From contig CAMCEM010000002.1 in the NCBI GenBank assembly GCA_945873755.1, positions 3,915 to 67,914 of the forward strand: DNA of 64,000 nt, read 5' to 3'. A program made the translations under genes and the position numbers. The notes under the pieces are model-generated. The model was not told the origin of the DNA and searched no databases. It worked only from the letters and a program-made list of their open reading frames with translations. The stretch is from Chitinophaga pinensis. Its GTDB lineage: Bacteria; Bacteroidota; Bacteroidia; UKL13-3. Below are positions 6,915 through 58,538 of this stretch, one piece after another; position 1 is the first letter of the stretch; each line of letters begins with the position of its first letter.

Positions 6915-7024
6915 ATTTATTTTTTTTAAATTGGTTTTTAACGTTTTTCAGCTTGGCGTAGTGGCGTATGATTAACCTCCGCTAATTGGCGGACCCACTT
7001 TTGACAAACCCGACTTAGTTACTG

Positions 7025-7076
7025 CCCTTCTTACGGTCAATGTTCTGTCGTGTCGAGTTAGCATTGTCCTTGTGCG
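7025..7076 (+). repeat. Conserved non-coding element, copy A (paralog of 9834-9886). Relatively GC-rich.
   Basis: cccttcttacggtcaatgttctgtcgtgtcgagttagcattgtccttgtgcg is about 80% identical to tccttcttttggtcaatggtctttcatatcgagtttgcactgtccttttgcg at 9834-9886, in the same orientation. Neither copy lies in a credible ORF. Confidence 0.5.
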
Positions 7077-7319
7077 AGAATGGACCAGGTACACCCACAT
7101 AATAAAGGTAGATTTGCTAAACATTCAGATGAAAGAATAGAGGAGAAGGCTTAAATCAAGGAGCACAAAAAACATGGTTTTGTGAATTTGTATTATATCT
7201 TGAGCTAATGGCCAATATTCTAACAAGCTATATTATAAATTAGAATACAATAATTTTCCTATTCAAATAAATATCGAAAAAATGACGCGATTAAATCCAT
7301 TGTTACTTGGCTTATAAGA

Positions 7320-8768
7320 CTAATTATTGTTCTGATTTATTGGCAGAAAAATAGAAAAAATACTTCCTTCGCCAAGCTTACTTTCTATTTTCAAACTTCC
7401 ATTCATTGCTACAATAAATTCATTACAAATCATTAATCCCAAGCCGCTTCCCTTTTCACCTTCAGTGCCATTTAAACTTTGTTTAGAATTGCTATTATTT
7501 AGATTTTGCAGCATTTCTTCATTCATACCAATGCCTTTATCAACTATTTGAATTAATACCTCTTTATTGTTTTCTGAATTCTCTGAAAAAAGTATTGATA
7601 TCTGTGAACCAACATGTGAAAATTTAATGGCATTATGTATTAAGTTACGCAATACAACCAACATTAGGTTTTTATCAGCAAAAAATTCCTTTGTAGTAGT
7701 TTCAGTATGTTGAATTGAAATTGATTTGACTTCACTAATGGGATTAATTTGAAGGATAATCTCTGAAATTATTGAAGCAAAATTTAAGCTTTCAACATTA
7801 ACCTTAATTCCTTGCTCCATGCCAACCTTAGCCCAACTCATAATATTCTCGAAAGTACCTGAAAGGCCATGAATTGACTTATTTATATCCTTACAAAACA
7901 ACATGAACTCTTCATCACTCAAATCATTGTCTGCATGCAAATCTATTATGTTTCTTAAGTTAGCAATCGGACTTCTCATATCGTGAGCAACAACAGAAAA
8001 TAATTTAGATTTTTGTGCATTTAATTCTTGTAGAACTTTTGCTTGTTCTTCAATTTGACTATTCTTTTCTTTTAATCGCTGATTGAATCTTCTTTGATTT
8101 ATAAGAGTAATAATCAACCAAAATACAATGATGATAATGAAAAATATTATGTACTTTCTCCTGTCCGACTTATCCTCCAGCTCAGAAATCTTGCTTACAT
8201 TTTCCTCAAAAGCAAAACGTTTACTATTTAAATTAGAAGTTAAAAACAATTTATTCCTATACCTGCTTTTTAATGCGAGATAAGCTTTCTGCATATTTTC
8301 AAGCGCCTCCATTTTATTTCCCTTCAATAACTGAAGCGCTCCTAGTTTACTCGTTCTTTCCATATTATAAATACTATTCTCTTCTTCATTCTTTGTTGAA
8401 TAAGCATTTATCAATGAATCTGCCTGATTTAAATAAATCTCTGCCTCTTTCACGTTATTTTGAGATAATTTAATATCGACTAAAGCTAAAATAGCATTGA
8501 TTGCGCTGGTAATTTGGTTTGAAAGTATAGATTCTTTTTTATCAATAATTAATAATTTCTCCGCCATTGCAAAATCGCCTTTGCTAGCCAAAATACTTCC
8601 TAAATTTCCTGATATGATTCCTATCCAAATTCTATTACTATCCCTTTTAGCCCTGTATAATCCAAGTCGAAAGTACTTTTCTGCTGAATCTAATTGTTCC
8701 TCATTTTTAAAAAGCATACCAAATGAATTAGCTAATTGAATGGATTCATAACCATCAAAATTCTTCAA
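7320..8768 (-). CDS. Sensor histidine kinase, C-terminal part (TPR, TM, HisKA, HATPase). It is in frame with 8781-9275 across a single TAA and the two are probably one disrupted gene.
   Basis: VVAHDMRSPIANL is the H-box, and the C-terminus carries HATPase_c N/G boxes. The ORF has no ATG start (only a TTG at 8766-8768) and no signal peptide. Minus-strand reading across the junction is ...LSD*ETAGLKNFDG. Confidence 0.75.
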   Translation of the reverse strand: MKNFDGYESIQLANSFGMLFKNEEQLDSAEKYFRLGLYRAKRDSNRIWIGIISGNLGSILASKGDFAMAEKLLIIDKKESILSNQITSAINAILALVDIKLSQNNVKEAEIYLNQADSLINAYSTKNEEENSIYNMERTSKLGALQLLKGNKMEALENMQKAYLALKSRYRNKLFLTSNLNSKRFAFEENVSKISELEDKSDRRKYIIFFIIIIVFWLIITLINQRRFNQRLKEKNSQIEEQAKVLQELNAQKSKLFSVVAHDMRSPIANLRNIIDLHADNDLSDEEFMLFCKDINKSIHGLSGTFENIMSWAKVGMEQGIKVNVESLNFASIISEIILQINPISEVKSISIQHTETTTKEFFADKNLMLVVLRNLIHNAIKFSHVGSQISILFSENSENNKEVLIQIVDKGIGMNEEMLQNLNNSNSKQSLNGTEGEKGSGLGLMICNEFIVAMNGSLKIESKLGEGSIFSIFLPINQNNN

Positions 8769-8780
8769 TCCGGCCGTTTC

Positions 8781-9275
8781 TTAATCACTTAATAATTTTT
8801 CATTCTCGTAAAAATGTCTTTTTGCTTCTTTATCTTGATTTATAGCTGATAAAAAATGGCAAACCTTTAAATTTAAATGGAAAAATTCTTTAAAAAGCTT
8901 CTTTTCTTTTAATTCATATTCTGTTTGTTCAATAATGGTGTGAAATTGAGCAGGACGACCAATATACATTTCCATCACTGCTTTTGAAAAATTCAATAAA
9001 TATTTTGTATGCAGAAACTCAGGACGTTTATTGTAGAATTTATCAAATTCATTGATATAATACTTCAATTCCTTTAAAGCAATTGTAGAACGATAGGTAT
9101 GATCACAAAGGGTTTCTAAAAAGCGAATTAGTTTCTCATCACTCGGATTGGATTTTAACTTTTGGAAAATCTCTTTATGTCTAATAATATTCCTAGCTTC
9201 TTCTAAAGTATCAATCTGAGCAAATGAGACTTTAACTAAAAATGTGAAAAGAATGATTGGTAGTATTTTTTTCAT
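8781..9275 (-). CDS. N-terminal fragment (signal peptide plus TPR-like helices) of the TPR sensor kinase, ending at an in-frame TAA
   Basis: MKKILPIILFTFLVKVSFAQ is a signal peptide. The frame is the same as the kinase ORF and a single stop at 8781-8783 separates them. The combined 646 aa matches typical Bacteroidetes TPR-HK length. Confidence 0.6.
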   Translation of the reverse strand: MKKILPIILFTFLVKVSFAQIDTLEEARNIIRHKEIFQKLKSNPSDEKLIRFLETLCDHTYRSTIALKELKYYINEFDKFYNKRPEFLHTKYLLNFSKAVMEMYIGRPAQFHTIIEQTEYELKEKKLFKEFFHLNLKVCHFLSAINQDKEAKRHFYENEKLLSD

Positions 9276-9526
9276 AGATTAGTTACAAAATAAATAAAAA
9301 AATGGGAAACAATTTAATTTCATCCAAATTGAAAAAAATAATTCTTGAAAAATTAGTGAAACAAAGTTATTTGTCGTTTATTTAAAAATGATGCTTGATA
9401 TAAATTTTATAGCAGATTATTCATAAAATATTAATATCTATTAATAACAATTTCAAAAATAATCAGTCATATACAAAATGTATTTAAAATTATTTCAGAC
9501 ATGTGGCATATGAGTTCAAACGCAAA

Positions 9527-9790
9527 TAGCAATTATATCAGACCCACATGGATGAGTACTTTATAGAAGTGATGGAAGCCATTTGTAAAAGGGCAACTTG
9601 TGGCAGAGGAAGAAGTGATTGTGTGCAGGTTCTCCAATTGGATTAGCTCATTGTGATGAAGTGGTTCATCAAATAAAAAAAATGATTCATAAAGATGATA
9701 TATCACGGAACATTATGTGAGAACTGTGCATGCAGAACAAAATGCCATTTGTATGGCAGCAAAGTAGACCTAAAAAAAGTAGCCAAATTG
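9527..9790 (+). pseudogene. dCMP deaminase (ComEB-like) pseudogene: several frameshifts, an internal deletion and a missing C-terminus
   Basis: Pieces in different frames: ...PTW/DEYFIEVMEAICKRATCGRGRSDCV..., GSPIGLAHCDEVVHQ and TEHYVRTVHAEQNAICMAAK*. These match the deaminase zinc motifs HxE and HAEQNA, but the PCxxC region is absent. Confidence 0.55.
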
Positions 9791-9833
9791 TTCAGCAAAA
9801 AATAAAGTGAAATGGATAATAGAATAGTGGCTT

Positions 9834-9886
9834 TCCTTCTTTTGGTCAATGGTCTTTCATATCGAGTTTGCACTGTCCTTTTGCGG
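9834..9886 (+). repeat. Conserved non-coding element, copy B (paralog of 7025-7076). It starts about 430 nt of GC-richer non-coding DNA.
   Basis: See copy A. The following stretch (9890-10260) has no credible ORF and contains gggtcggc direct repeats. Confidence 0.5.
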
Positions 9887-10289
9887 TTACTTGTTTTGCT
9901 TACAAATGAACACAATGTGGGTCAGCCCCAAAATAGAATTAAAAAAAAGTGCGGTGGGGAAAATAAAAAATACTGAAGGGTCGGCAATGAGGGTCGGCTT
10001 ATTCGTTGCTCGTTTTAAATATGGTCTGTATGTTGGTCACTTAGCAAAATGGTTTGTCATTGTGTTTAAATTTTGTTCGGTCTATCGTCTTTTGAATGGT
10101 CTTCCTACCATTGGCTATAACGTTCCCATGGCAGGCGCAGAAAGCATTTCAACCTAAAAAGTTCCAACGAAACCATGAAGTCCAAATCTACTAATATGTT
10201 TCATACGAACCTAAATATGCTTTTACGCTTACCATTTATTACCTATTACTTTAAAGACCAAATTCCATATTCTTTACAAGAATCATAGC

Positions 10290-11318
10290 TCATACTTTAA
10301 TCAGTTGTTTTAAACGGCCCTGAAAAGACTGGAAATAATTTCTTTTAGTTGTATCATTTAGATAAGAAGCAGCTACCATTTTTTCAACTAAATCTGATTT
10401 AGAAAGCATCAATGACATGATATCCTGAAAAGTTTTTTCACTGATTTCTGCTTTCTCCGCTAGTTTGGCAAATTGCAAACCGATTTTTCCTTGACCTAGA
10501 TTTCTAGGTAATAGTCCATCATCTAAAGTAAAATCTTTATCTTCTATATGAATACGGCTATTGAGTAAGTCATAAGCAGGACTTAGTCGATAATCACCAA
10601 AAGATGTTTCTAATATCGAGAAATTTTTAAAGTGTGCATCACCATTTGAAAAAAGATAATTAAAGACAAGTATTTTTAAAAGCTTTGGTGCTTCTATCTT
10701 ATAAGTTGTTAAATAGTTGCGCATTAATTCAAATATATCTAAATAATTACCAAGATACTTGTAATGTTCACCATGAGTTTGCGGTGTTCTTTTTGCTAAG
10801 GAAGCAAAGTCATCTTGTGCCAATTTTAAGCCATCTTCTTTTACATCAAATCTTTTGGTAATATAGGCAGGTGTACCATCTTTAAAAAAGATTAATGCAT
10901 TTTCCGCAGTCTCAATTCCATATACCTGACGGGCAATTTGCATAGTTAAATGCTCATTGGCGGGCATTTGATCTGGGTTTTTACCAGCGCCAGGAATCGG
11001 TTTCAGAATATAAGTACCATGTTCATTCTCATTAATAAGCCTTAGTTTGTTTTTGTCGAGCAGTACAGAATATTTTTCTTGCACGCCTGATATCGACATA
11101 CGTTTTCGGTTTTCATCAAATAGTTCATCAGTTTCTGGGTTTGACGATGGTGAATCGTAAGGCAAAATATGATGCACCTTCTTGCCCCGAAAGACTCTAT
11201 TTAAAGCGGTTTTACTATAAGTATCAAAACCTTCAGATAATGTTCCTGGACAAACTTTAATTAATAAAGGAAAATTATCAATTGACAATGGAGTTGAATT
11301 TTTTAATTTTTCGGTCAT
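10290..11318 (-). CDS. HipA C-terminal-domain Ser/Thr kinase toxin (HipT-like)
   Basis: SISGVQEKYSV matches the HipA SLSGxQxK ATP-binding motif. VFNYLFSNGDAHFKNFSIL matches the catalytic xxGNxDxHxKNxS motif. YDLLNS is also present. The start overlaps the upstream gene as ATGA. Confidence 0.85.
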   Translation of the reverse strand: MTEKLKNSTPLSIDNFPLLIKVCPGTLSEGFDTYSKTALNRVFRGKKVHHILPYDSPSSNPETDELFDENRKRMSISGVQEKYSVLLDKNKLRLINENEHGTYILKPIPGAGKNPDQMPANEHLTMQIARQVYGIETAENALIFFKDGTPAYITKRFDVKEDGLKLAQDDFASLAKRTPQTHGEHYKYLGNYLDIFELMRNYLTTYKIEAPKLLKILVFNYLFSNGDAHFKNFSILETSFGDYRLSPAYDLLNSRIHIEDKDFTLDDGLLPRNLGQGKIGLQFAKLAEKAEISEKTFQDIMSLMLSKSDLVEKMVAASYLNDTTKRNYFQSFQGRLKQLIKV

Positions 11319-11665
11319 TTTTGCTTTGAAGATTTTATAATAGAAATGAGCAGTCTTAAAATTTCTTCAACCTCAGTTTTATACGATTCAAAATCGTTTT
11401 TGTCAATATAGTCAGATTGGTGAAGTAAGTCTAGCCAATATGCTGATTCGTTTGCTTCTTTTAAGGCAATTGATAGTTTATGAATGAAATCTGCCTTACT
11501 TTCAGCATGTTCAGATTCTCTTACCAAAGCCCCAATAGCAGTTCCTGATCTCAATAATTGTTTTGATAGAATAAATTCTCTTTTAGATTCAGTCAAAAAC
11601 TGATAGAGTCTTACAATTCTCAATGAAAATGCAAAACTTTTTATTTTTATAATATTCTCTTTCAT
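11315..11665 (-). CDS. Four-helix-bundle protein (TIGR02436 / 23S rRNA intervening-sequence protein family, Avd-like), embedded between hipS and hipT
   Basis: LRSGTAIGALVRESEHAESKADFIHKLSIALKEANESAYWLDLL is the family signature. The likely ATG is at 11663-11665; the track ORF uses an upstream TTG. Confidence 0.7.
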   Translation of the reverse strand: MKENIIKIKSFAFSLRIVRLYQFLTESKREFILSKQLLRSGTAIGALVRESEHAESKADFIHKLSIALKEANESAYWLDLLHQSDYIDKNDFESYKTEVEEILRLLISIIKSSKQK

Positions 11666-11666
11666 A

Positions 11667-11757
11667 ATTATCAATTACCCATTATCAATTACCCATTATC
11701 AATTATCCATTATCAATTATCCATTTTCAATTATCCATTTTCAATTATCCATTTTCC
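11667..11757. repeat. 14-nt tandem repeat, about 6.5 copies ((C/T)CATT(A/T)TCAATTA(C/T)C)
   Basis: attatcaattaccc x2, attatcaattatcc x2, attttcaattatcc x2. The array spans exactly from the hipS-like stop codon (its last 5 codons lie in the repeat) to the four-helix-bundle gene start. Confidence 0.9.
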
Positions 11758-12067
11758 TTACAGTAACCGCACCAATGCTGTCATTTTTTGCAGTAGACAT
11801 CAGCAATCCAAAGTGGTCTTCTCGGTCTATTCTATTTAGTTTACAAACTACTTGCTTATTTGAGCCTTCAGGAAGCATGTTGTAAAAAAATGGAAATAGG
11901 TATTTAGAATGAAATTCTTTTTCAATTTTAGGTAAAGTAAGACTGATACTCTGCTTACTGTTATTGGCTATCCATTCATCTTGATAAAGAAATGAAAACG
12001 ATCCATCATCATGTTGGGTCAGGATACCTGCTTCTTCATTCTTGAATAATACTTTGGCTTTTCTCAT
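11741..12067 (-). CDS. HipA N-terminal-domain protein (HipS-like putative antitoxin)
   Basis: FFYNMLPEGSNKQVV...DSIGAVTV matches the HipA_N / couple_hipA domain (LLPEG...GxDxxGA). Separate 108-aa ORF. Confidence 0.8.
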   Translation of the reverse strand: MRKAKVLFKNEEAGILTQHDDGSFSFLYQDEWIANNSKQSISLTLPKIEKEFHSKYLFPFFYNMLPEGSNKQVVCKLNRIDREDHFGLLMSTAKNDSIGAVTVRKMDN

Positions 12068-12282
12068 TTATTAGTCGTTATGTTTTTAATTTTTAAGCAA
12101 ATCTCCATACCCAATACATCAGATATCTTTTGCAAAGTTAACAGTGTTGGATTTCCTTTTCCGCTTTCAAATTGTTTTAGCGTTCTCAATCCAACGTTTG
12201 ATAGTTCTGCTAATCTTTCCTGTGTTACTTGTAGCGCCTCCCTACGTTCTTTTATCGTTTTTATTAATTCGTTAAAGTGCAT
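12064..12282 (-). CDS. HTH XRE-family transcriptional regulator (HipB-like)
   Basis: TQERLAELSNVGLRTLKQFESGKGNPTLLTLQKISDVLGM is a Cro/C1-type HTH. It overlaps the hipS-like gene by 4 nt. Confidence 0.8.
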   Translation of the reverse strand: MHFNELIKTIKERREALQVTQERLAELSNVGLRTLKQFESGKGNPTLLTLQKISDVLGMEICLKIKNITTNK

Positions 12283-12601
12283 TATATGGCATTATTTAGT
12301 GCAAACGTAATATTAAATTTATAAAAAACAACAAAAAGAGCGTTAAACCGCACTATATATTATTTATTTTGATATTAACTAAGTAATCAAAGTAAAAAGT
12401 GCAACTTAAAGCACTATTGTTTATCTGAGAGAGTTTGTCTAGGTTAATGCAGTATTGGTAGTAATGTTTGCAGTTACAAGAAGTTGACGATTTCGGAGAC
12501 GAGAATTGTCTGCTACCACTGAGCTTGATACGAAGCACGAAGTTTATTTAACCACTGAGCCACCAATTTCTTGTAGGTGCTTTTAGTGGCTGGGCTAATT
12601 G

Positions 12602-13177
12602 TCATGGTTCAAATAAATTATTTATGATTCTGTCTACAGAAATTTTTGTACGAGGAACATTGTCCGTGCGCAAATAACTTTGAAGTCTATTTTTAATAAT
12701 ATCTGATTTCGGATTGTCAGTTAGTCTTGGGTTTAATTGTTGTAATAGTAGAGATTGATTCAATCTTTCTCCATTTGTCGTGCAGAATATTAGTGCGTCA
12801 AGTGCTACTAAACTAAGAGGTCTACCTTTAGATAACCATTTGTCGGCCCTATCCCAATTGAAAAAGGAAACAGCAGCCAAATGTCCCCAATTAATTCCAA
12901 CGCTTTTAATTCTTTGAGCATTGTTTTCGATCCAGTCTAATGTTTTGTCGGTGCGGATATTATTTAAAGCAAGAATGTAATCGTTTAGATTTCTATCTTC
13001 ACAATGGTCAATTTCAATGGAAATTACTTTAAAAGCTTCGTCTTTGTTTAACCTCTTAGCAATATCCTCGCAACGAAGATGAAAGTCGTCAATTTTTTCT
13101 TGGTTGTTCATTATGCTGTTTATCTGTAGCCTTACCGCTAACTTGCATATACCCGCTACTTTATAGCGCATATCCAC
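12602..13177 (-). CDS. Hypothetical protein, 191 aa, no recognisable domain
   Basis: ORF only. It is probably cytoplasmic (no signal peptide or TM segments). The real start may be the internal M (MNNQEK...). Confidence 0.45.
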   Translation of the reverse strand: MDMRYKVAGICKLAVRLQINSIMNNQEKIDDFHLRCEDIAKRLNKDEAFKVISIEIDHCEDRNLNDYILALNNIRTDKTLDWIENNAQRIKSVGINWGHLAAVSFFNWDRADKWLSKGRPLSLVALDALIFCTTNGERLNQSLLLQQLNPRLTDNPKSDIIKNRLQSYLRTDNVPRTKISVDRIINNLFEP

Positions 13178-13410
13178 ATAAAATTGATTGGCTTTGCGAA
13201 ACTAGTTGGTGTTTTTTCCTTTTACAATTATATTCATTTATTTAAAAATAATAGTTAATTTATTATTGAACCCCATAAAAGAAACATCACTGTGAGCATC
13301 CACCCGAATGGGATGGTATGGTATGTTCAAAACCATATTCATAAAATAACATTATATGCAACAAAATAATTTTGTCCAGTAAAGTATAGGGCGAACACAT
13401 AGGTTTGACC

Positions 13411-35110: not shown

Positions 35111-35322
35111 ACAATTAAACAGTTAAACAGTTAAACAGTTAAACAGTTAAACAGTTAAACAGTTAAACAATTAAACAATTAAACAATTAAACAATTAAAC
35201 AATTAAACAATTAAACTATTAAACTATTAAACTATTAAACTATTAAACTATTAAACTATTAAACAATTAAACAATTAAACAATTAAACAATTAAACAATT
35301 AAACAATTAAACAATTAAACAA
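35111..35322. repeat. 8-nt microsatellite, about 26 units, in blocks of CAGTTAAA, CAATTAAA, CTATTAAA and CAATTAAA
   Basis: Read directly. It lies between the dihydroorotase start and the response-regulator stop. Confidence 0.95.
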
Positions 35323-46460: not shown

Positions 46461-46665
46461 CAAATCACAAATCTCATTTCACAAATCTCATTTCACATAT
46501 CTCATTTCACATATCTCATTTCACATATCTCATTTCCCATATCTCATTTCCCAAATCACATTTCCCATATCTCATATCCCAAATCTCATTTCACATATCT
46601 CATTTCCCATATCTCATTTCCCATATCTCATTTCCCATATCTCATATCACAAATCACATTTCCCA
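46461..46665. repeat. 13-nt tandem repeat, about 15 units (ATCTCATTTC(A/C)CA; the reverse complement carries GAAATGAGAT)
   Basis: Read directly. The 3' end overlaps the last codons of the methyltransferase gene. ORF 46446-46718 in the track is just this repeat translated. Confidence 0.95.
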
Positions 46666-57000: not shown

Positions 57001-58293
57001 CTACACAAACATTTCCTCTTGCTCTTTGTCTAATTCTTCTTTGTCTTTATCTATTTTACGTTTAACTAATAATTGTAAAGCAGGCCCAGCCATAACTGAT
57101 GTTACCACTGCCATAACAACTATAGCCACAAATAATTTTTGGTTTATTAAACCTGCTTGTAAAGCCAATAATGCTAAAATAATTTCCATTGCTCCTCGGG
57201 CGTTCATTCCAAAACCTACAGCCAAGCTTTCTTGTTTAGTTAATCCACCCCAAAGTGCACCTAAACCCGCACCTAATAATTTGCAAACTATAGCAATTAC
57301 AAGCACCAAAGCGGTAACTTGCAGATCGAAATTTGCAAAAAAGTTAACTTTGAAACCAATTGAAACAAAAAACAATGGAGCAAAAATATTGGTAACAAAT
57401 TGGTTTACAATTTCTCTAGTTTTTTCAGTTAAATGCACACTGTCGCCAAAAGCAATACCCACTATAAATGCACCAAAAATAGCGTGAATACCAATAAACT
57501 CGGTAAATGCAGCTCCTAAAAATGCCAAACCTAACGAAATACTTAAAAATCCACCTGGCCAGCTAAAGTTTTTTTTGGCCCATGGCAACGATTTATTAAT
57601 AATAATTCGGCCAATAGTTAGCATTGCAACTGCATACAAAATTGTTAACCCTAAAGTATACAAAAAACCATGAGCCAATGCGTTGCTTTTTAACATTCCT
57701 AAAATAACAGAAAATAACAACCAACCAATTATATCATCAAACATGGCTGCAGCAATAATTATCATTCCAACTTTGGTTCTAAACAAACCTAAATCCATTA
57801 AAGTACGAGCTATAATTGGTAAAGCCGAAACAGCCATTGCTGTTCCAAAAAACAAACTAAACAAAATTAATCTAAAATGATTGTTATAATTTTCGCCAAA
57901 TAATGGAAAAAAATAATAAGCTGCTAAAAAACCTAAACCCAAGGGAATAATTAAACCTAAAAAACTGGTTTTTAATGCTGTTTTACCTTGCTGACGGATA
58001 ATTGAAAGATCGACTTCCATGCCTGCCACAAACAATAACATAATTACCGAAATGGATGTAATTCCATTAAAAGCAATATGAGAATTACTATTTTGGTTTA
58101 ACACTAAATTACTAATTTTAGGGAAATATTGACCCAATAAACTAGGTCCTAAACAAATACCCGCTACCAATTCGCCAACCACCAATGGCATTTTTAATTT
58201 CCTGAAAAACTCACCCACAAGCCTAGCCACAATAAGCAAAATGCCTAAGCTCAAAATTAAACTTATTATTTCTTGGTGATTAAGGGTTTTCAT
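57001..58293 (-). CDS. CPA2-family cation:proton antiporter (Kef/NapA-like)
   Basis: 430 aa, about 12 TM. The N-terminus is ...ARLVGEFFRKLKMPLVVGELVAGICLGPSLLG. Confidence 0.85.
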   Translation of the reverse strand: MKTLNHQEIISLILSLGILLIVARLVGEFFRKLKMPLVVGELVAGICLGPSLLGQYFPKISNLVLNQNSNSHIAFNGITSISVIMLLFVAGMEVDLSIIRQQGKTALKTSFLGLIIPLGLGFLAAYYFFPLFGENYNNHFRLILFSLFFGTAMAVSALPIIARTLMDLGLFRTKVGMIIIAAAMFDDIIGWLLFSVILGMLKSNALAHGFLYTLGLTILYAVAMLTIGRIIINKSLPWAKKNFSWPGGFLSISLGLAFLGAAFTEFIGIHAIFGAFIVGIAFGDSVHLTEKTREIVNQFVTNIFAPLFFVSIGFKVNFFANFDLQVTALVLVIAIVCKLLGAGLGALWGGLTKQESLAVGFGMNARGAMEIILALLALQAGLINQKLFVAIVVMAVVTSVMAGPALQLLVKRKIDKDKEELDKEQEEMFV

Positions 58294-58294
58294 T

Positions 58295-58500
58295 TGGAGA
58301 TTTATTCATTTGGAGATTTGGAGATTTGGAGATTTATTGATTTAAGGAATTATTTTATTGTTGTATTGTTGTATTGTTAAATTGTTGTATTGTCTATTGC
58401 TTATTGTCTATTGTCTATTGTCTATTGCTTATTGTCTATTGCCTATTGCTTATTGCTTATTGTCTTTTGCTGATTGCTGATTGCTGATTGCTGATTGCTA
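58295..58500. repeat. Composite microsatellite block immediately 5' of the antiporter start
   Basis: (GGAGATTT)3, (TTGTATTG)n, (CTATTGT/CTTATTG)n and (CTGATTG)4, read directly. Confidence 0.95.
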
Positions 58501-58538
58501 ATTGTATTTTATTCAGCATTTCGAACTCCTCACTCCCT

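What the first reader, a model, noticed from the sequence alone, without database searches (positions are those of the whole stretch)
10290..12282. Split-HipA (HipB-HipS-HipT-like) operon with a four-helix-bundle gene and a 14-nt tandem repeat inserted between hipS and hipT
What the sequence shows:
- On the minus strand, a Cro/C1 HTH gene (12064-12282) overlaps by 4 nt a 108-aa ORF that matches only the HipA N-terminal domain (LLPEG...DSIGAVTV).
- Further down, a 342-aa ORF matches only the HipA kinase core (SISGVQEK; SNGDAHFKNFS).
- This is the HipBST-type tripartite arrangement, with HipA split into HipS and HipT.
- Here a 119-aa TIGR02436 four-helix-bundle protein is wedged between hipS and hipT and is translationally coupled to hipT (ATGA overlap). 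This family is the 23S-rRNA-IVS / Avd-like one and is multicopy in Bacteroidetes.
- A 14-nt x6.5 tandem repeat fills the hipS-to-4HB spacer and encodes the last residues of HipS.

Inference:
- I am not aware of a four-gene hipB-hipS-X-hipT layout having been characterised.
- The 4HB protein could be a fourth regulatory component, or a small selfish gene cassette marked by the repeat.
Basis: partly seen in the sequence, partly recalled or inferred. Interest (0 to 1): 0.7.

Follow-up and report, generated by a model that had tools for sequence, protein, structure and literature searches.

The report
Four-helix-bundle cassette wedged into hipBST
This is an ordinary three-gene HipBST toxin-antitoxin operon that carries a small passenger gene bracketed by inverted 7-base repeat arrays, and the same kind of bracketed gene sits inside many unrelated operons in several bacterial phyla, resembling the selfish inserts known from 23S ribosomal RNA genes.

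Summary
On the minus strand lie hipB, hipS, a period-7 tandem array, a TIGR02436/PF05635 four-helix-bundle (4HB) gene and hipT, with ATGA overlaps at hipB/hipS and 4HB/hipT.

The "fourth Hip component" reading is not supported.
- Of 78 close hipBST loci, 58 have hipS and hipT abutting and only 8 carry the 4HB gene.
- Three loci keep cassette footprints beside intact hipBST genes.
- 4HB genes 58-78% identical sit wedged in other operons, including hsdR|ygjP, fic|hsdS, rsgA|dtd and guaA|glmS.

- The gene is bracketed by forward heptamers ([T/G]GNNAAT) upstream and their reverse complement downstream.
- Such tandems occur in 72% of 4HB flanks against 1.7% of control gaps.
- The heptamer variant co-varies between the two arms.
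- Plasmid-borne 4HB genes in Cyanobacteria, Spirochaetota and Chloroflexota also carry period-7 arrays, inverted between the arms in most, built from unrelated heptamers.

The architecture matches the Coxiella 23S rRNA intervening sequence, which has an S23p ORF, heptamer repeats and a terminal stem cut by RNase III. The 4HB protein is under purifying selection (dN/dS about 0.1) in every context tested. How the cassette spreads, and whether its RNA is processed, remain inferred.

The parts
12302..12358 (-). Conserved hipB upstream region. It holds a TAnnTTTG-type box (TACGTTTG, about 12302-12309) and a conserved AGTGC-N8-GCTCT imperfect palindrome, a candidate promoter and HipB operator.
   Evidence: Alignment of 7 hip loci shows invariant blocks. 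The promoter consensus is from my own knowledge of Bacteroidota promoters. This assignment is an inference.
12064..12282 (-). hipB: 72-aa Cro/C1-type HTH protein, the predicted transcriptional autoregulator.
   Evidence: HTH_3 E = 1.6e-13. TIGR03070 couple_hipB E = 7e-13, below the family cutoff. ATGA overlap with hipS.
11741..12067 (-). hipS: 108-aa HipA N-subdomain-1 protein, the predicted antitoxin. Its last 5 codons and stop codon lie in the heptamer array.
   Evidence: Couple_hipA E = 8.9e-21. PDB HipS(Lp) E = 1.3e-11 and HipS(O127) E = 3.8e-10.
11667..11757 (-). 5' arm of the cassette: 13 forward heptamers ([T/G]G[A/G]NAAT, which is a rotation of TAATTGA/TAATGGA). It carries stop codons in all three frames and ends 1 nt before the 4HB ATG.
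   Evidence: TRF period 7 x 13. Three-frame translation. Copy number ranges from 4 to 21 among loci with 97-100% identical 4HB.
11315..11665 (-). 4HB gene (116 aa from the ATG at 11665; the longest ORF starts at a TTG at 11674). TIGR02436 / PF05635 / S23p family.
   Evidence: PF05635 E = 6e-26 and TIGR02436 E = 1.2e-29. PDB 2RLD E = 8e-39. dN/dS 0.126.
11262..11318 (-). 3' part of the cassette. It holds the hipT ATG overlapping the 4HB stop (ATGA), plus a leader encoding 14 extra HipT residues. The leader contains degenerate inverted heptamers (ATTGTCA ATTGATA ATTTTCC, 11269-11289).
   Evidence: Comparison with empty sites, where hipS and hipT overlap as TAATG. The leader is retained in footprint loci L056 and L067. 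Only the hipT frame is open.
11235..11750 (-). Predicted long-range closing helix of the cassette transcript. The 5' arm is 11693-11750 and the 3' arm is 11235-11291. The helix encloses the 4HB ORF and the hipT start codon.
   Evidence: The MFE and centroid structures pair the arms. There are 40 MFE pairs, and pairing probability is about 1.0 for 11279-11291. This is a prediction only.
10290..11318 (-). hipT: 342-aa HipA-core Ser/Thr kinase, the predicted toxin. It has a Gly-rich loop (MSISGVQEK), a catalytic motif (SNGDAHFKNFS) and SPAYDLLNS.
   Evidence: HipA_C E = 3e-39. PDB 7vkb E = 4.5e-28 with the motifs aligned, and 7ab3 E = 3e-11.

Best explanation
The locus is a HipBST-type toxin-antitoxin operon: hipB (repressor), hipS (antitoxin) and hipT (kinase toxin). 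An autonomous, context-independent cassette sits at its hipS/hipT junction.

**Cassette anatomy**
- A forward array of heptamers. It has stop codons in all frames, so it terminates hipS, and it forms the A/T-rich leader of the next gene.
- A 116-aa four-helix-bundle gene of the S23p/TIGR02436 family.
- An ATGA stop-start overlap.
- A short leader containing the same heptamers in inverted orientation. This leader is translated as 14 extra N-terminal residues of HipT.

**Effect on the operon**
The insert replaces the ancestral hipS-hipT translational coupling (TAATG) with 4HB-hipT coupling, so the operon stays functional.

**What the 4HB protein is**
It is not a Hip-specific subunit. It is the cargo of a widespread element whose hallmark is a 4HB ORF bracketed by inverted period-7 arrays. 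Architecturally it is the same as the 23S rRNA intervening sequences that carry S23p ORFs.

**Shown**
The anatomy, the dispensability of the 4HB gene for hipBST, its promiscuous contexts, the orientation and co-variation of the arms, and purifying selection on the 4HB gene.

**Inferred**
- In the transcript the two arms pair and enclose the 4HB ORF, and may be processed by RNase III as in the rRNA intervening sequences (about 35-40% likely).
- The arrays serve translation stop and restart.
- The element spreads rarely, by an unknown route, possibly recombination between arrays or between hip alleles.
For: **1. Most relatives lack the gene.**
- Among 80 GTDB loci with HipT 75-93% identical, 58 have hipS and hipT abutting, 8 carry the 4HB gene and 12 have other junction expansions.
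- In empty sites the hipS stop overlaps the hipT start as TAATG.

**2. Loss is tolerated.**
- L056 keeps the array plus the leader.
- L067 keeps the 4HB 3' end, the ATGA and the leader.
- L077 keeps the array plus the first codons of the 4HB gene.
- L017 has a premature stop in the 4HB gene.
- L003 has an in-frame insertion of about 105 nt in the 4HB gene.

**3. The same cassette sits elsewhere.** 4HB genes 58-78% identical to the window's lie between co-directional genes:
- hsdR|ygjP-like (16 loci)
- fic|hsdS
- RhuM|hsdR
- MmeI|RhuM
- rsgA|dtd (10 loci)
- guaA|glmS
- mevalonate-PP decarboxylase|GHMP kinase
- DUF5522|cobU
- ion channel|bestrophin

**4. The arrays are specific to 4HB genes.**
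- Forward tandem heptamers average 2.73 units per 150 nt upstream, against 0.010 in background. None of the upstream arrays is in reverse orientation. Reverse arrays lie downstream.
- 71.8% of 177 4HB flanks carry KGNNAAT tandems, against 1.7% of 652 control non-coding gaps.

**5. The arms co-vary.**
- Overlap of the variable dinucleotide between the upstream arm and the reverse complement of the downstream arm is 0.625. Permuted pairings give 0.333 +/- 0.043, and 0 of 5000 permutations reach the observed value.
- Examples: TGTGAAT with ATTCACA in rsgA|dtd, TGTTAAT with ATTAACA in RhuM contexts, TGAGAAT with ATTCTCC in hsdR|ygjP.

**6. The pattern crosses phyla.**
- Among 16 plasmid-borne 4HB genes in Cyanobacteria, Bacteroidota, Spirochaetota, Chloroflexota and Bacillota, 10 of 16 upstream flanks and 10 of 16 downstream flanks carry arrays.
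- In a scan of periods 4-12, the best period in those flanks was 7 in every case. In most loci the two arms are mutually inverted.
- The heptamer sequences are unrelated to each other: GCAATTC/GAATTGC, GTCGGAG/CTCCGAC, TAATTCG/CGAATTA, AATCGTA/TACGATT and TAGTGAT/ATCACTA.

**7. A published precedent exists.** The Coxiella 23S intervening sequence has an S23p ORF, 2-3 tandem heptamers just upstream of its ATG with strain-variable copy number, and a 28-bp terminal inverted-repeat stem cut by RNase III. It has been called a selfish element (PMC4990558).

**8. Folding supports arm pairing.**
- The arms pair in the MFE and centroid structures.
- Pairing probability is about 1.0 in the window.
- Arm duplex energies have a median of -30.9 against -23.0 kcal/mol in controls, p = 7.5e-10.

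**9. The 4HB gene is selected in every context tested.** dN/dS is 0.126 in hip loci, 0.078 in hsdR|ygjP and 0.070 in rsgA|dtd.
Against: - The 4HB tree follows operon context. No near-identical copies were seen in different contexts, so there is no direct evidence of recent mobility.
- No transposase, recombinase or reverse transcriptase is associated with the cassette.
- Hip-associated 4HB genes are intact and constrained in most carriers, and the gene sits at the same junction in two hipBST lineages whose HipT is only 52-72% identical to the window's. That is also what a useful accessory would look like.
- The duplex-energy shift is modest. Whole-region fold z-scores are weak, -1.1 and -1.8.
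- No expression or processing data exist.
- The co-variation test uses 26 representatives that are not fully independent phylogenetically.
- The HipT tree is neighbour-joining without support values.
Confidence: 0.75

Rival explanations
1. The 4HB protein is a genuine fourth component of a HipBST subfamily. For example, it could modulate HipT or HipS, or sense a trigger, and would be maintained because it benefits the toxin-antitoxin or defence function.
For: - Purifying selection on the 4HB gene in hip loci: dN/dS 0.126, comparable to HipB at 0.169.
- Translational coupling to hipT.
- Hip-associated 4HB genes form their own clades and persist across loci with dS of about 1.
- The gene is present at the same junction in a second hipBST lineage, where HipT identity is 52-72%.
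- 4HB genes are often seen in defence operons such as cas, type I R-M, DISARM and MmeI.
Against: - Absent from 70 of 78 closest hipBST loci.
- Deleted or degraded in 5 lineages while hipBST stays intact.
- Equally constrained 4HB genes with the same flanks sit in housekeeping operons: rsgA|dtd, guaA|glmS, the mevalonate pathway and cobU.
- No PADLOC model matches it.
- 4HB and HipT identities are discordant: 77% against 89% in L004, and 76% against 52% in L097.
Confidence: 0.12
2. The cassette is a DNA-level mobile element. The inverted heptamer arrays would be terminal inverted repeats recognised by a trans-acting transposase or recombinase, or would provide homology for recombination between array-bearing sites, rather than acting as an RNA stem.
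For: - Matched, co-varying arms are what a common end-binding protein or arm-to-arm conversion would produce.
- Array-only sites exist in the window, at 58289-58505 and 46471-46665.
- Carriers are scattered in the HipT tree.
- Burgin's and Ralph and McClelland's hypotheses for intervening sequences are quoted in PMC4990558.
Against: - No target-site duplication or clean insertion boundary was seen. About 37 nt of the empty site is replaced.
- No multiple near-identical copies were found, and the 4HB tree follows context.
- No associated transposase was found.
- No relatives were found on viral contigs.
Confidence: 0.3
3. The repeat is just one of the genome's many slippage-generated microsatellites, and its position next to the 4HB gene is coincidental. 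The 4HB gene would be an ordinary small gene acquired by the operon.
For: - The window has other intergenic period-7, period-8 and period-14 arrays that are not next to 4HB genes.
- Heptamer simple-sequence repeats are known to be common in some genomes (PMC4679880).
- Copy number is hypervariable.
Against: - 72% of 4HB flanks carry such arrays, against 1.7% of control non-coding gaps.
- Orientation is strict: forward upstream, reverse downstream.
- The arms co-vary.
- The same architecture recurs with unrelated heptamers in other phyla.
Confidence: 0.04
4. The 4HB gene is the Avd accessory protein of a diversity-generating retroelement (DGR).
For: PF05635 is the family that resembles Avd (PMC10053308).
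Against: - No reverse transcriptase is among the called genes within about 5 kb on either side (Pfam lists).
- No template/variable repeat pair was found.
- The gene is embedded in a toxin-antitoxin operon.
Confidence: 0.02

Closest known systems
HipBST tripartite toxin-antitoxin systems (E. coli O127:H6 HipBST; Legionella pneumophila Lpg2368-2370)
   Same: - Gene order is hipB-hipS-hipT.
- HipS corresponds to HipA N-subdomain-1.
- HipT is the kinase core, with a Gly-rich loop carrying the S-I-S motif, a catalytic motif and a Mg-binding motif.
- The closest solved structures are HipT(Lp), HipS(Lp), HipT(O127) and HipS(O127).
   Different: - An unrelated 116-aa gene plus repeat arrays separates hipS from hipT.
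- HipT carries 14 extra N-terminal residues encoded by the insert.
- hipT is coupled to the 4HB gene rather than to hipS.
- The host is Bacteroidota.
- No experimental data exist.
23S rRNA intervening sequences (IVS) carrying an S23p ORF (Coxiella burnetii, Leptospira, others)
   Same: - The ORF belongs to the same protein family (PF05635/S23p).
- Tandem heptamers lie immediately upstream of the ORF start, with variable copy number.
- Terminal inverted repeats are able to form a closing stem.
- The element is inserted into a transcribed region without destroying host function.
- It has been regarded as selfish (PMC4990558).
   Different: - Here the host is a protein-coding operon junction, not 23S rRNA helix 25 or 45.
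- The inverted termini are themselves heptamer arrays.
- The ORF is intact and under purifying selection, whereas in Coxiella it is decaying and apparently untranslated.
- RNase III cleavage has not been tested here.
23S_rRNA_IVP genes noted inside cas loci (Zhang, Doak and Ye 2014, PMC3936711) and listed as CRISPR-associated (PMC10910872)
   Same: A small 4HB gene is wedged between genes of a defence operon, for example between cmr3 and cmr2. I saw csx2|4HB|cas1, hsdS|4HB|hsdR and drmD|4HB|MmeI.
   Different: - Those reports treat the gene as a possible functional associate of cas genes.
- In the passages retrieved they do not mention the flanking inverted heptamer arrays.
- Equally typical housekeeping contexts were found here.
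Intergenic heptamer direct repeats: TAACTGA repeats of Beggiatoaceae, Cyanobacteria and Bacteroidetes (MacGregor 2015, PMC4679880), and cyanobacterial STRR heptamers (from my own memory: Mazel et al. 1990)
   Same: - The arrays have period 7.
- They lie in forward orientation just upstream of start codons.
- They carry stops in all three frames, so they end upstream ORFs.
- Reverse copies are translated inside ORFs.
- The window's unit, TAATTGA, differs from TAACTGA by one base.
   Different: - That work found no associated gene and proposed translational regulation.
- Here the arrays come as inverted pairs around one particular gene family.
Avd of diversity-generating retroelements
   Same: The protein is a homologous four-helix-bundle protein. 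In the solved structures it forms a pentamer. PDB 2RLD has 5 chains.
   Different: There is no reverse transcriptase, template repeat or variable repeat nearby, and the genomic setting is different.

Membership tests
HipBST toxin-antitoxin (HipT kinase family, clade III of Gerdes et al. 2021) | Tricistronic order hipB-hipS-hipT on one strand | tested here: met
   The order is kept. It is interrupted by one extra gene between hipS and hipT. 58 of 78 close relatives have the uninterrupted form.
HipBST toxin-antitoxin (HipT kinase family, clade III of Gerdes et al. 2021) | HipS is a stand-alone protein of about 100 aa homologous to HipA N-subdomain-1 | tested here: met
   Couple_hipA E = 8.9e-21, covering 5-103 of 108 aa. 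HipS(Lp) E = 1.3e-11 and HipS(O127) E = 3.8e-10.
HipBST toxin-antitoxin (HipT kinase family, clade III of Gerdes et al. 2021) | HipT lacks N-subdomain-1 but keeps the Gly-rich loop with autophosphorylated Ser, the catalytic motif and the Mg-binding motif | tested here: met
   Only HipA_C matches. MSISGVQEK, NGDAHFKNFS and SPAYDLLNS align to HipT(Lp) 7vkb.
HipBST toxin-antitoxin (HipT kinase family, clade III of Gerdes et al. 2021) | HipT is toxic (phosphorylates TrpS), HipS neutralises it, HipB autoregulates | not testable with these tools
   This needs expression and biochemistry.
TIGR02436 / PF05635 four-helix-bundle (S23p, 23S_rRNA_IVP) proteins | Score above the curated cutoffs over the full model, with a four-helix-bundle fold | tested here: met
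   TIGR02436 scores 102.7 bits (cutoff 24) and PF05635 scores 91.2 bits (cutoff 33.8). PDB 2RLD E = 8e-39 over residues 1-115.
23S rRNA intervening-sequence (IVS) element | Located inside a 23S rRNA gene (helix 25 or 45) | tested here: not met
   There is no Rfam match and no rRNA in 9000-13400. The element lies between two protein-coding genes.
23S rRNA intervening-sequence (IVS) element | S23p ORF enclosed by terminal inverted repeats that form a stem | tested here: met
   The flanking arrays are inverted. The predicted closing helix runs from 11693-11750 to 11235-11291, with pairing probability of about 1.
23S rRNA intervening-sequence (IVS) element | Excision of the element from the transcript by RNase III | not testable with these tools
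   This needs RACE or RNA-seq, or in vitro cleavage.
DGR accessory protein Avd | Adjacent reverse transcriptase and a template/variable repeat pair | tested here: not met
   There is no RVT family among the called genes around the locus. Repeat searches found only the heptamer arrays.
Intergenic heptamer direct-repeat arrays (TAACTGA-type / long simple-sequence repeats) | Tandem 7-nt units in forward orientation ending within a few nt of a start codon, with stops in all frames | tested here: met
   Thirteen units end 1 nt before the 4HB ATG. There are stops in all three frames.
Transposon / MITE | Target-site duplication, multiple near-identical copies, and a transposase in cis or trans | tested here: not met
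   No target-site duplication at the junction. There is a single copy in the window. The 4HB tree follows context, with no near-identical copies elsewhere. A trans-acting enzyme cannot be excluded.

The most novel reading that the evidence does not exclude
Genes of the S23p/TIGR02436 four-helix-bundle family, together with a pair of inverted period-7 repeat arrays, form a previously unrecognised and phylum-spanning class of self-contained genetic element. The element wedges into transcribed DNA, either rRNA (as intervening sequences) or operon junctions (as here), using a stop-gene-restart design. The pentameric 4HB protein would act on its own heptamer arrays, as RNA or DNA, for processing, maintenance or spread. 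This would connect three old puzzles: the function of the ORFs in rRNA intervening sequences, the 4HB genes seen in cas and restriction-modification operons, and the heptamer repeats (STRR and TAACTGA types) of Cyanobacteria, Beggiatoaceae and Bacteroidota.
Probability: 0.3. Interest if true: 0.85.

Novelty: new variant of a known kind. Interest (0 to 1): 0.62.

Why it matters
**For toxin-antitoxin biology.** A four-gene hipB-hipS-X-hipT layout should not be read as a new four-component system. The extra gene is a passenger that rewires translational coupling of the toxin and gives it an N-terminal tag. This is a natural experiment on how much decoupling a HipBST module tolerates.

**More broadly.** The locus led to a rule that I could not find in the searchable literature. 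4HB/S23p genes in at least four phyla are bracketed by inverted arrays whose period is always 7, although the heptamer sequence differs between lineages and co-varies between the two arms.
- This gives a concrete, testable handle on the unknown function of a very large protein family.
- It bears on the origin of the 23S rRNA intervening sequences.
- It bears on why heptamer microsatellites are so common in some bacterial genomes.
- It warns annotators that 4HB genes found inside defence operons may be hitch-hikers rather than components.

Tried and rejected
- **Viral contigs.** A scan with the 4HB protein found no relatives, so there is no evidence for phage carriage.
- **Structured RNAs.** Rfam (E up to 1) and tRNA scans of 9000-13400 found nothing. 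No known structured RNA explains the repeat.
- **PADLOC.** There is no model for the 4HB protein. HipT and HipS match only the candidate system PDC-M03A/B, weakly.
- **Sigma-70 promoter scan.** It gives periodic hits inside the array. I regard these as a by-product of the repeat, and the consensus is not the Bacteroidota one.
- **Whole-region fold z-scores.** These are weak, -1.1 and -1.8. I do not use global stability as evidence. I use only the specific long-range helix and the arm statistics.
- **"Stop-free in all three frames" for the downstream arm.** This holds for pure ATTATCA arrays by inspection. In the window only the hipT frame is open, so I weakened the claim.
- **Unbiased period detector.** At 85% or better self-match it finds fewer arrays (25 of 88 upstream, 35 of 88 downstream) than the motif-based count, because units alternate. 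I report both figures.
- **A single ancient insertion with strict co-divergence.** This was rejected because 4HB and HipT identities are discordant and carriers are scattered in the HipT tree. Recent transposition was also not supported.
- **The DGR/Avd reading.** Rejected because no reverse transcriptase is nearby.
- **Literature searches.** Searches for a published link between 4HB/S23p genes and heptamer arrays found only the Coxiella intervening-sequence description. Subscription-only literature was not searchable.

Full report
**1. Observation**

The minus strand of 10290-12282 reads as follows.
- hipB, 12064-12282: HTH_3, E = 1.6e-13.
- hipS, 11741-12067: Couple_hipA, E = 8.9e-21. It overlaps hipB by ATGA.
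- A tandem array at 11667-11757.
- A four-helix-bundle (4HB) gene ending at 11315: PF05635, E = 6e-26; TIGR02436, E = 1.2e-29.
- hipT, 10290-11318: HipA_C, E = 3e-39. Its ATG overlaps the 4HB stop.

TRF scores the array as 13 copies of a 7-mer, or 6.2 copies of a 14-mer. The units are GGATAAT, TGATAAT, TGAAAAT and GGGTAAT. The array provides the last five codons and the stop codon of hipS, has stop codons in all three frames, and ends one base before an ATG at 11665.

All homologues of the 4HB protein begin at that ATG with MKENI (116 aa). The 119-aa ORF listed from a TTG inside the repeat is therefore probably three codons too long. The window comes from a Bacteroidota metagenome contig.

**2. 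The Hip part is a normal HipBST module**

- The closest solved structures to HipT are Legionella HipT (7vkb, E = 4.5e-28, residues 22-339) and E. coli O127 HipT (7ab3, E = 3e-11).
- The Gly-rich loop (MSISGVQEK), the catalytic motif (NGDAHFKNFS) and SPAYDLLNS all align.
- HipS is closest to HipS(Lp) and HipS(O127).
- Gerdes et al. describe hipBST as one of ten Hip gene organisations. None of them has a gene between hipS and hipT (PMC8262856).
- The hipB upstream region is conserved among loci and contains a TAnnTTTG-like box and an imperfect palindrome. Their assignment as promoter and operator is an inference.

**3. Is the 4HB gene part of the Hip system?**

A scan of one genome per species returned 80 loci with HipT 75-93% identical to the window's, from Flavobacteriales, Saprospiraceae, Cytophagales, Bacteroidales and others. 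The junction state breaks down as follows.

| Junction state | Loci |
|---|---|
| hipS and hipT abutting (compact) | 58 |
| 4HB gene present | 8 |
| Other junction expansions | 12 |
| Truncated contigs | 2 |

In the compact junctions read, the hipS stop overlaps the hipT start (TAATG) and HipT begins MSLPEIKYCPG.

Three of the expanded junctions are cassette footprints.
- L056 keeps the array and the hipT leader but has no 4HB gene.
- L067 keeps the 4HB 3' end, the ATGA and the leader.
- L077 keeps the array and the first codons of the 4HB gene.

In two carriers the 4HB gene itself is damaged. L017 has a premature stop, and L003 has an in-frame insertion of about 105 nt. In all of these loci hipB, hipS and hipT remain intact. 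The 4HB gene is therefore dispensable for the module.

**4. The same gene with the same flanks sits in unrelated operons**

Close relatives of the 4HB protein (58-78% identity) were located on contigs. Almost all lie co-directionally and tightly between two genes. Contexts found:
- hipS|hipT, about 20 loci
- hsdR|YgjP-like, 16 loci
- fic|hsdS
- RhuM|hsdR
- MmeI|RhuM
- rsgA|dtd, 10 loci
- guaA|glmS
- mevalonate-diphosphate decarboxylase|GHMP kinase
- DUF5522|cobU
- ion channel|bestrophin
- an amidohydrolase and ubiD

Housekeeping operons are as typical as defence operons.

**5. Anatomy of the cassette**

Upstream of these genes there are tandem heptamers of the form [T/G]GNNAAT in forward orientation. 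Downstream there are the reverse complements (ATTNNC[A/C]).
- With the narrow motif, upstream flanks hold 2.73 forward units per 150 nt, against 0.010 in 1.1 Mb of surrounding sequence. They hold no reverse units.
- With the general motif, 67 of 100 genes have a forward array upstream, 58 of 100 a reverse array downstream, and 43 of 100 both.
- 71.8% of 177 flanks carry such tandems, against 1.7% of 652 control non-coding gaps from the same loci.

The variable dinucleotide of the heptamer co-varies between the two arms. Overlap is 0.625 against 0.333 +/- 0.043 for permuted pairings, with 0 of 5000 permutations reaching the observed value, using 26 representatives. Examples are TGTGAAT with ATTCACA around rsgA|dtd copies, TGTTAAT with ATTAACA in RhuM contexts, and TGAGAAT with ATTCTCC in hsdR|ygjP.

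In about 40% of cases the downstream gene starts at or overlapping the 4HB stop (ATGA in hip loci, TAATG in hsdR|ygjP), and the reverse array is translated as its N-terminus. In the window this leader is 11262-11318. It gives HipT 14 extra residues (MTEKLKNSTPLSID...) and contains ATTGTCA ATTGATA ATTTTCC at 11269-11289.

Array length is unstable. Loci with 97-100% identical 4HB genes have 4 to 21 upstream units.

**6. Generality**

A tblastn search of PLSDB found 4HB genes on 31 plasmids. Sixteen were inspected. They are again wedged in operons:
- drmD|MmeI
- hsdS|hsdR
- csx2|cas1
- helicase|methyltransferase
- DUF1156|Swt1-HEPN
- RND adaptor|RND permease
- next to xisH/xisI

Ten of 16 upstream flanks and 10 of 16 downstream flanks carry tandem arrays. 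A scan of periods 4-12 returned 7 as the best period in every plasmid flank with an array, and period 8 only once, in the Bacteroidota set.

The heptamers are unrelated between lineages but inverted between the arms in most loci:
- Nostoc GCAATTC/GAATTGC, GTCGGAG/CTCCGAC and TAATTCG/CGAATTA
- Planktothrix AATCGTA/TACGATT
- Bernardetia TAGTGAT/ATCACTA
- Euhalothece CCAGTGA/CTGGTCA

What is conserved is the period and the complementarity, not the sequence.

**7. Comparison with what is known**

- The Coxiella burnetii 23S rRNA intervening sequence carries an ORF of the same family (S23p). It has two or three tandem heptamers (GACAGAT) immediately upstream of its ATG, with strain-variable number, and a 28-bp terminal inverted-repeat stem cut by RNase III. 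It is called a selfish element (PMC4990558).
- Zhang et al. noted 18 23S_rRNA_IVP genes inside cas loci (PMC3936711).
- MacGregor described intergenic TAACTGA heptamer arrays that end at start codons and have stops in all frames, with reverse copies translated inside ORFs (PMC4679880). The window's unit, read as TAATTGA, differs from TAACTGA by one base.
- None of these papers, nor any other found in five literature searches, links the 4HB family in general to inverted heptamer arrays or describes the operon-wedging design. Subscription-only literature could not be searched.

**8. Mechanism**

Shown:
- The array terminates hipS.
- The 4HB gene starts right after the array.
- hipT restarts on the 4HB stop.
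- The arms are complementary.

Predicted:
- In a 561-nt transcript, the 5' arm (11693-11750) pairs with the 3' arm (11235-11291). There are 40 MFE pairs, and pairing probability is about 1.0 for 11279-11291.
- The same closing helix appears in an hsdR|ygjP copy.
- Arm duplex energies are shifted relative to controls: median -30.9 against -23.0 kcal/mol, p = 7.5e-10. The shift is modest and whole-region z-scores are weak.

Whether the helix is processed by RNase III, and what that does to hipT, is untested.

**9. Evolution**

- The 4HB gene is under purifying selection in all three contexts tested: dN/dS 0.126 in hip loci, 0.078 in hsdR|ygjP and 0.070 in rsgA|dtd. For comparison, HipS is 0.080 and HipT 0.079.
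- The 4HB tree follows operon context. Hip copies fall in two clades, and the second belongs to hipBST loci whose HipT is only 52-72% identical to the window's.
- Carriers are scattered among non-carriers in the HipT tree.
- Identities are discordant: in L004 the 4HB is 77% identical and HipT 89%, while in L097 the 4HB is 76% and HipT 52%.

Insertions are therefore old and rare. There have been repeated losses, and probably some transfer between hip alleles. The mechanism of spread is unknown.

**10. Verdict**

The HipBST assignment is right. The extra gene is best explained as an IVS-like passenger cassette rather than a fourth Hip component (confidence about 0.75). The locus itself is a new variant of known kinds. 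The cross-phylum rule it exposed is the more interesting result and deserves a systematic census and simple experiments.

Noticed in passing
L174-L189 (plasmid loci from Nostoc, Planktothrix, Euhalothece, Dolichospermum, Gloeocapsa, Pseudanabaena, Bernardetia, Chondrinema, Treponema, Chlorohelix, Monoglobus): 4HB genes in other phyla are also flanked by period-7 arrays, inverted between the two arms in most loci. The heptamer sequences are lineage-specific and unrelated to each other (GCAATTC, GTCGGAG, TAATTCG, AATCGTA, TAGTGAT, CTGGTCA, CTCTCCG). The genes are again wedged in operons: drmD|MmeI, hsdS|hsdR, csx2|cas1, DUF1156|Swt1-HEPN and RND adaptor|permease.
   Followed up: partly
window 35111-35322, 46471-46665, 58289-58505: Three other long intergenic tandem arrays lie in the window, none next to a 4HB gene. 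They are (GTTTAATT)x26 downstream of a response-regulator gene, (GGGAAATGAGATAT)x14 downstream of a methyltransferase gene, and mixed 7-, 8- and 14-mers (AGACAAT, AAGCAAT and others) between a universal stress protein (Usp) gene and a Na+/H+ exchanger gene. They could be array-only sites or ordinary simple-sequence repeats.
   Followed up: partly
window 6942-10117: A clean 3,176-bp presence/absence difference lies next to hipT relative to near-identical loci L082 and L084 (96-98% identity on both sides). The extra segment carries a histidine-kinase-like ORF (7320-8768), a 164-aa ORF (8781-9275) and about 840 nt without long ORFs. L095 shares it.
   Followed up: partly
L011, L015, L023 (Belliella), L045 (Arundinibacter roseus), L039/L047/L065 (Flavobacterium): The hipS/hipT junction carries other, unrelated inserts in several genomes. 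Belliella has about 85-100 nt. L045 has about 290 nt with a long GC-rich hairpin (MITE/REP-like), together with a cassette-type hipT leader. The junction looks like a hot spot for insertions.
   Followed up: no
L003:4549-5004: The 4HB gene of this hip locus contains an in-frame insertion of about 105 nt with 11-bp terminal inverted repeats (CATAATACCAT...ATGGTATTATG). This is a small element inside the passenger gene.
   Followed up: no
window 11667-11757, and L001, L002, L082, L094, L095: The upstream array varies from 4 to 21 heptamers among loci whose 4HB genes are 97-100% identical. The window has one 14-nt unit more than L001, a metagenome contig encoding the same four proteins. The variation also changes the C-terminal residues of HipS.
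   Followed up: partly
window 12283-12400: The hipB upstream region is conserved in 7 of 7 compared loci. It contains a TAnnTTTG-like box (TACGTTTG, about 12302-12309) and AGTGC-N8-GCTCT, a candidate Bacteroidota-type promoter and HipB operator.
   Followed up: partly
L178 (Nostoc punctiforme pNPUN01): An array-bracketed 4HB gene lies directly upstream of xisH/xisI and next to tnsA. MacGregor 2015 noted that TAACTGA heptamer repeats and XisH/XisI have similar phylogenetic distributions.
   Followed up: no
window 10290-12067: In PADLOC, HipT and HipS match only the candidate defence system PDC-M03A/B, weakly (E = 7e-10 and 2e-5). This suggests that split-HipA modules are already catalogued as candidate anti-phage systems.
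   Followed up: no
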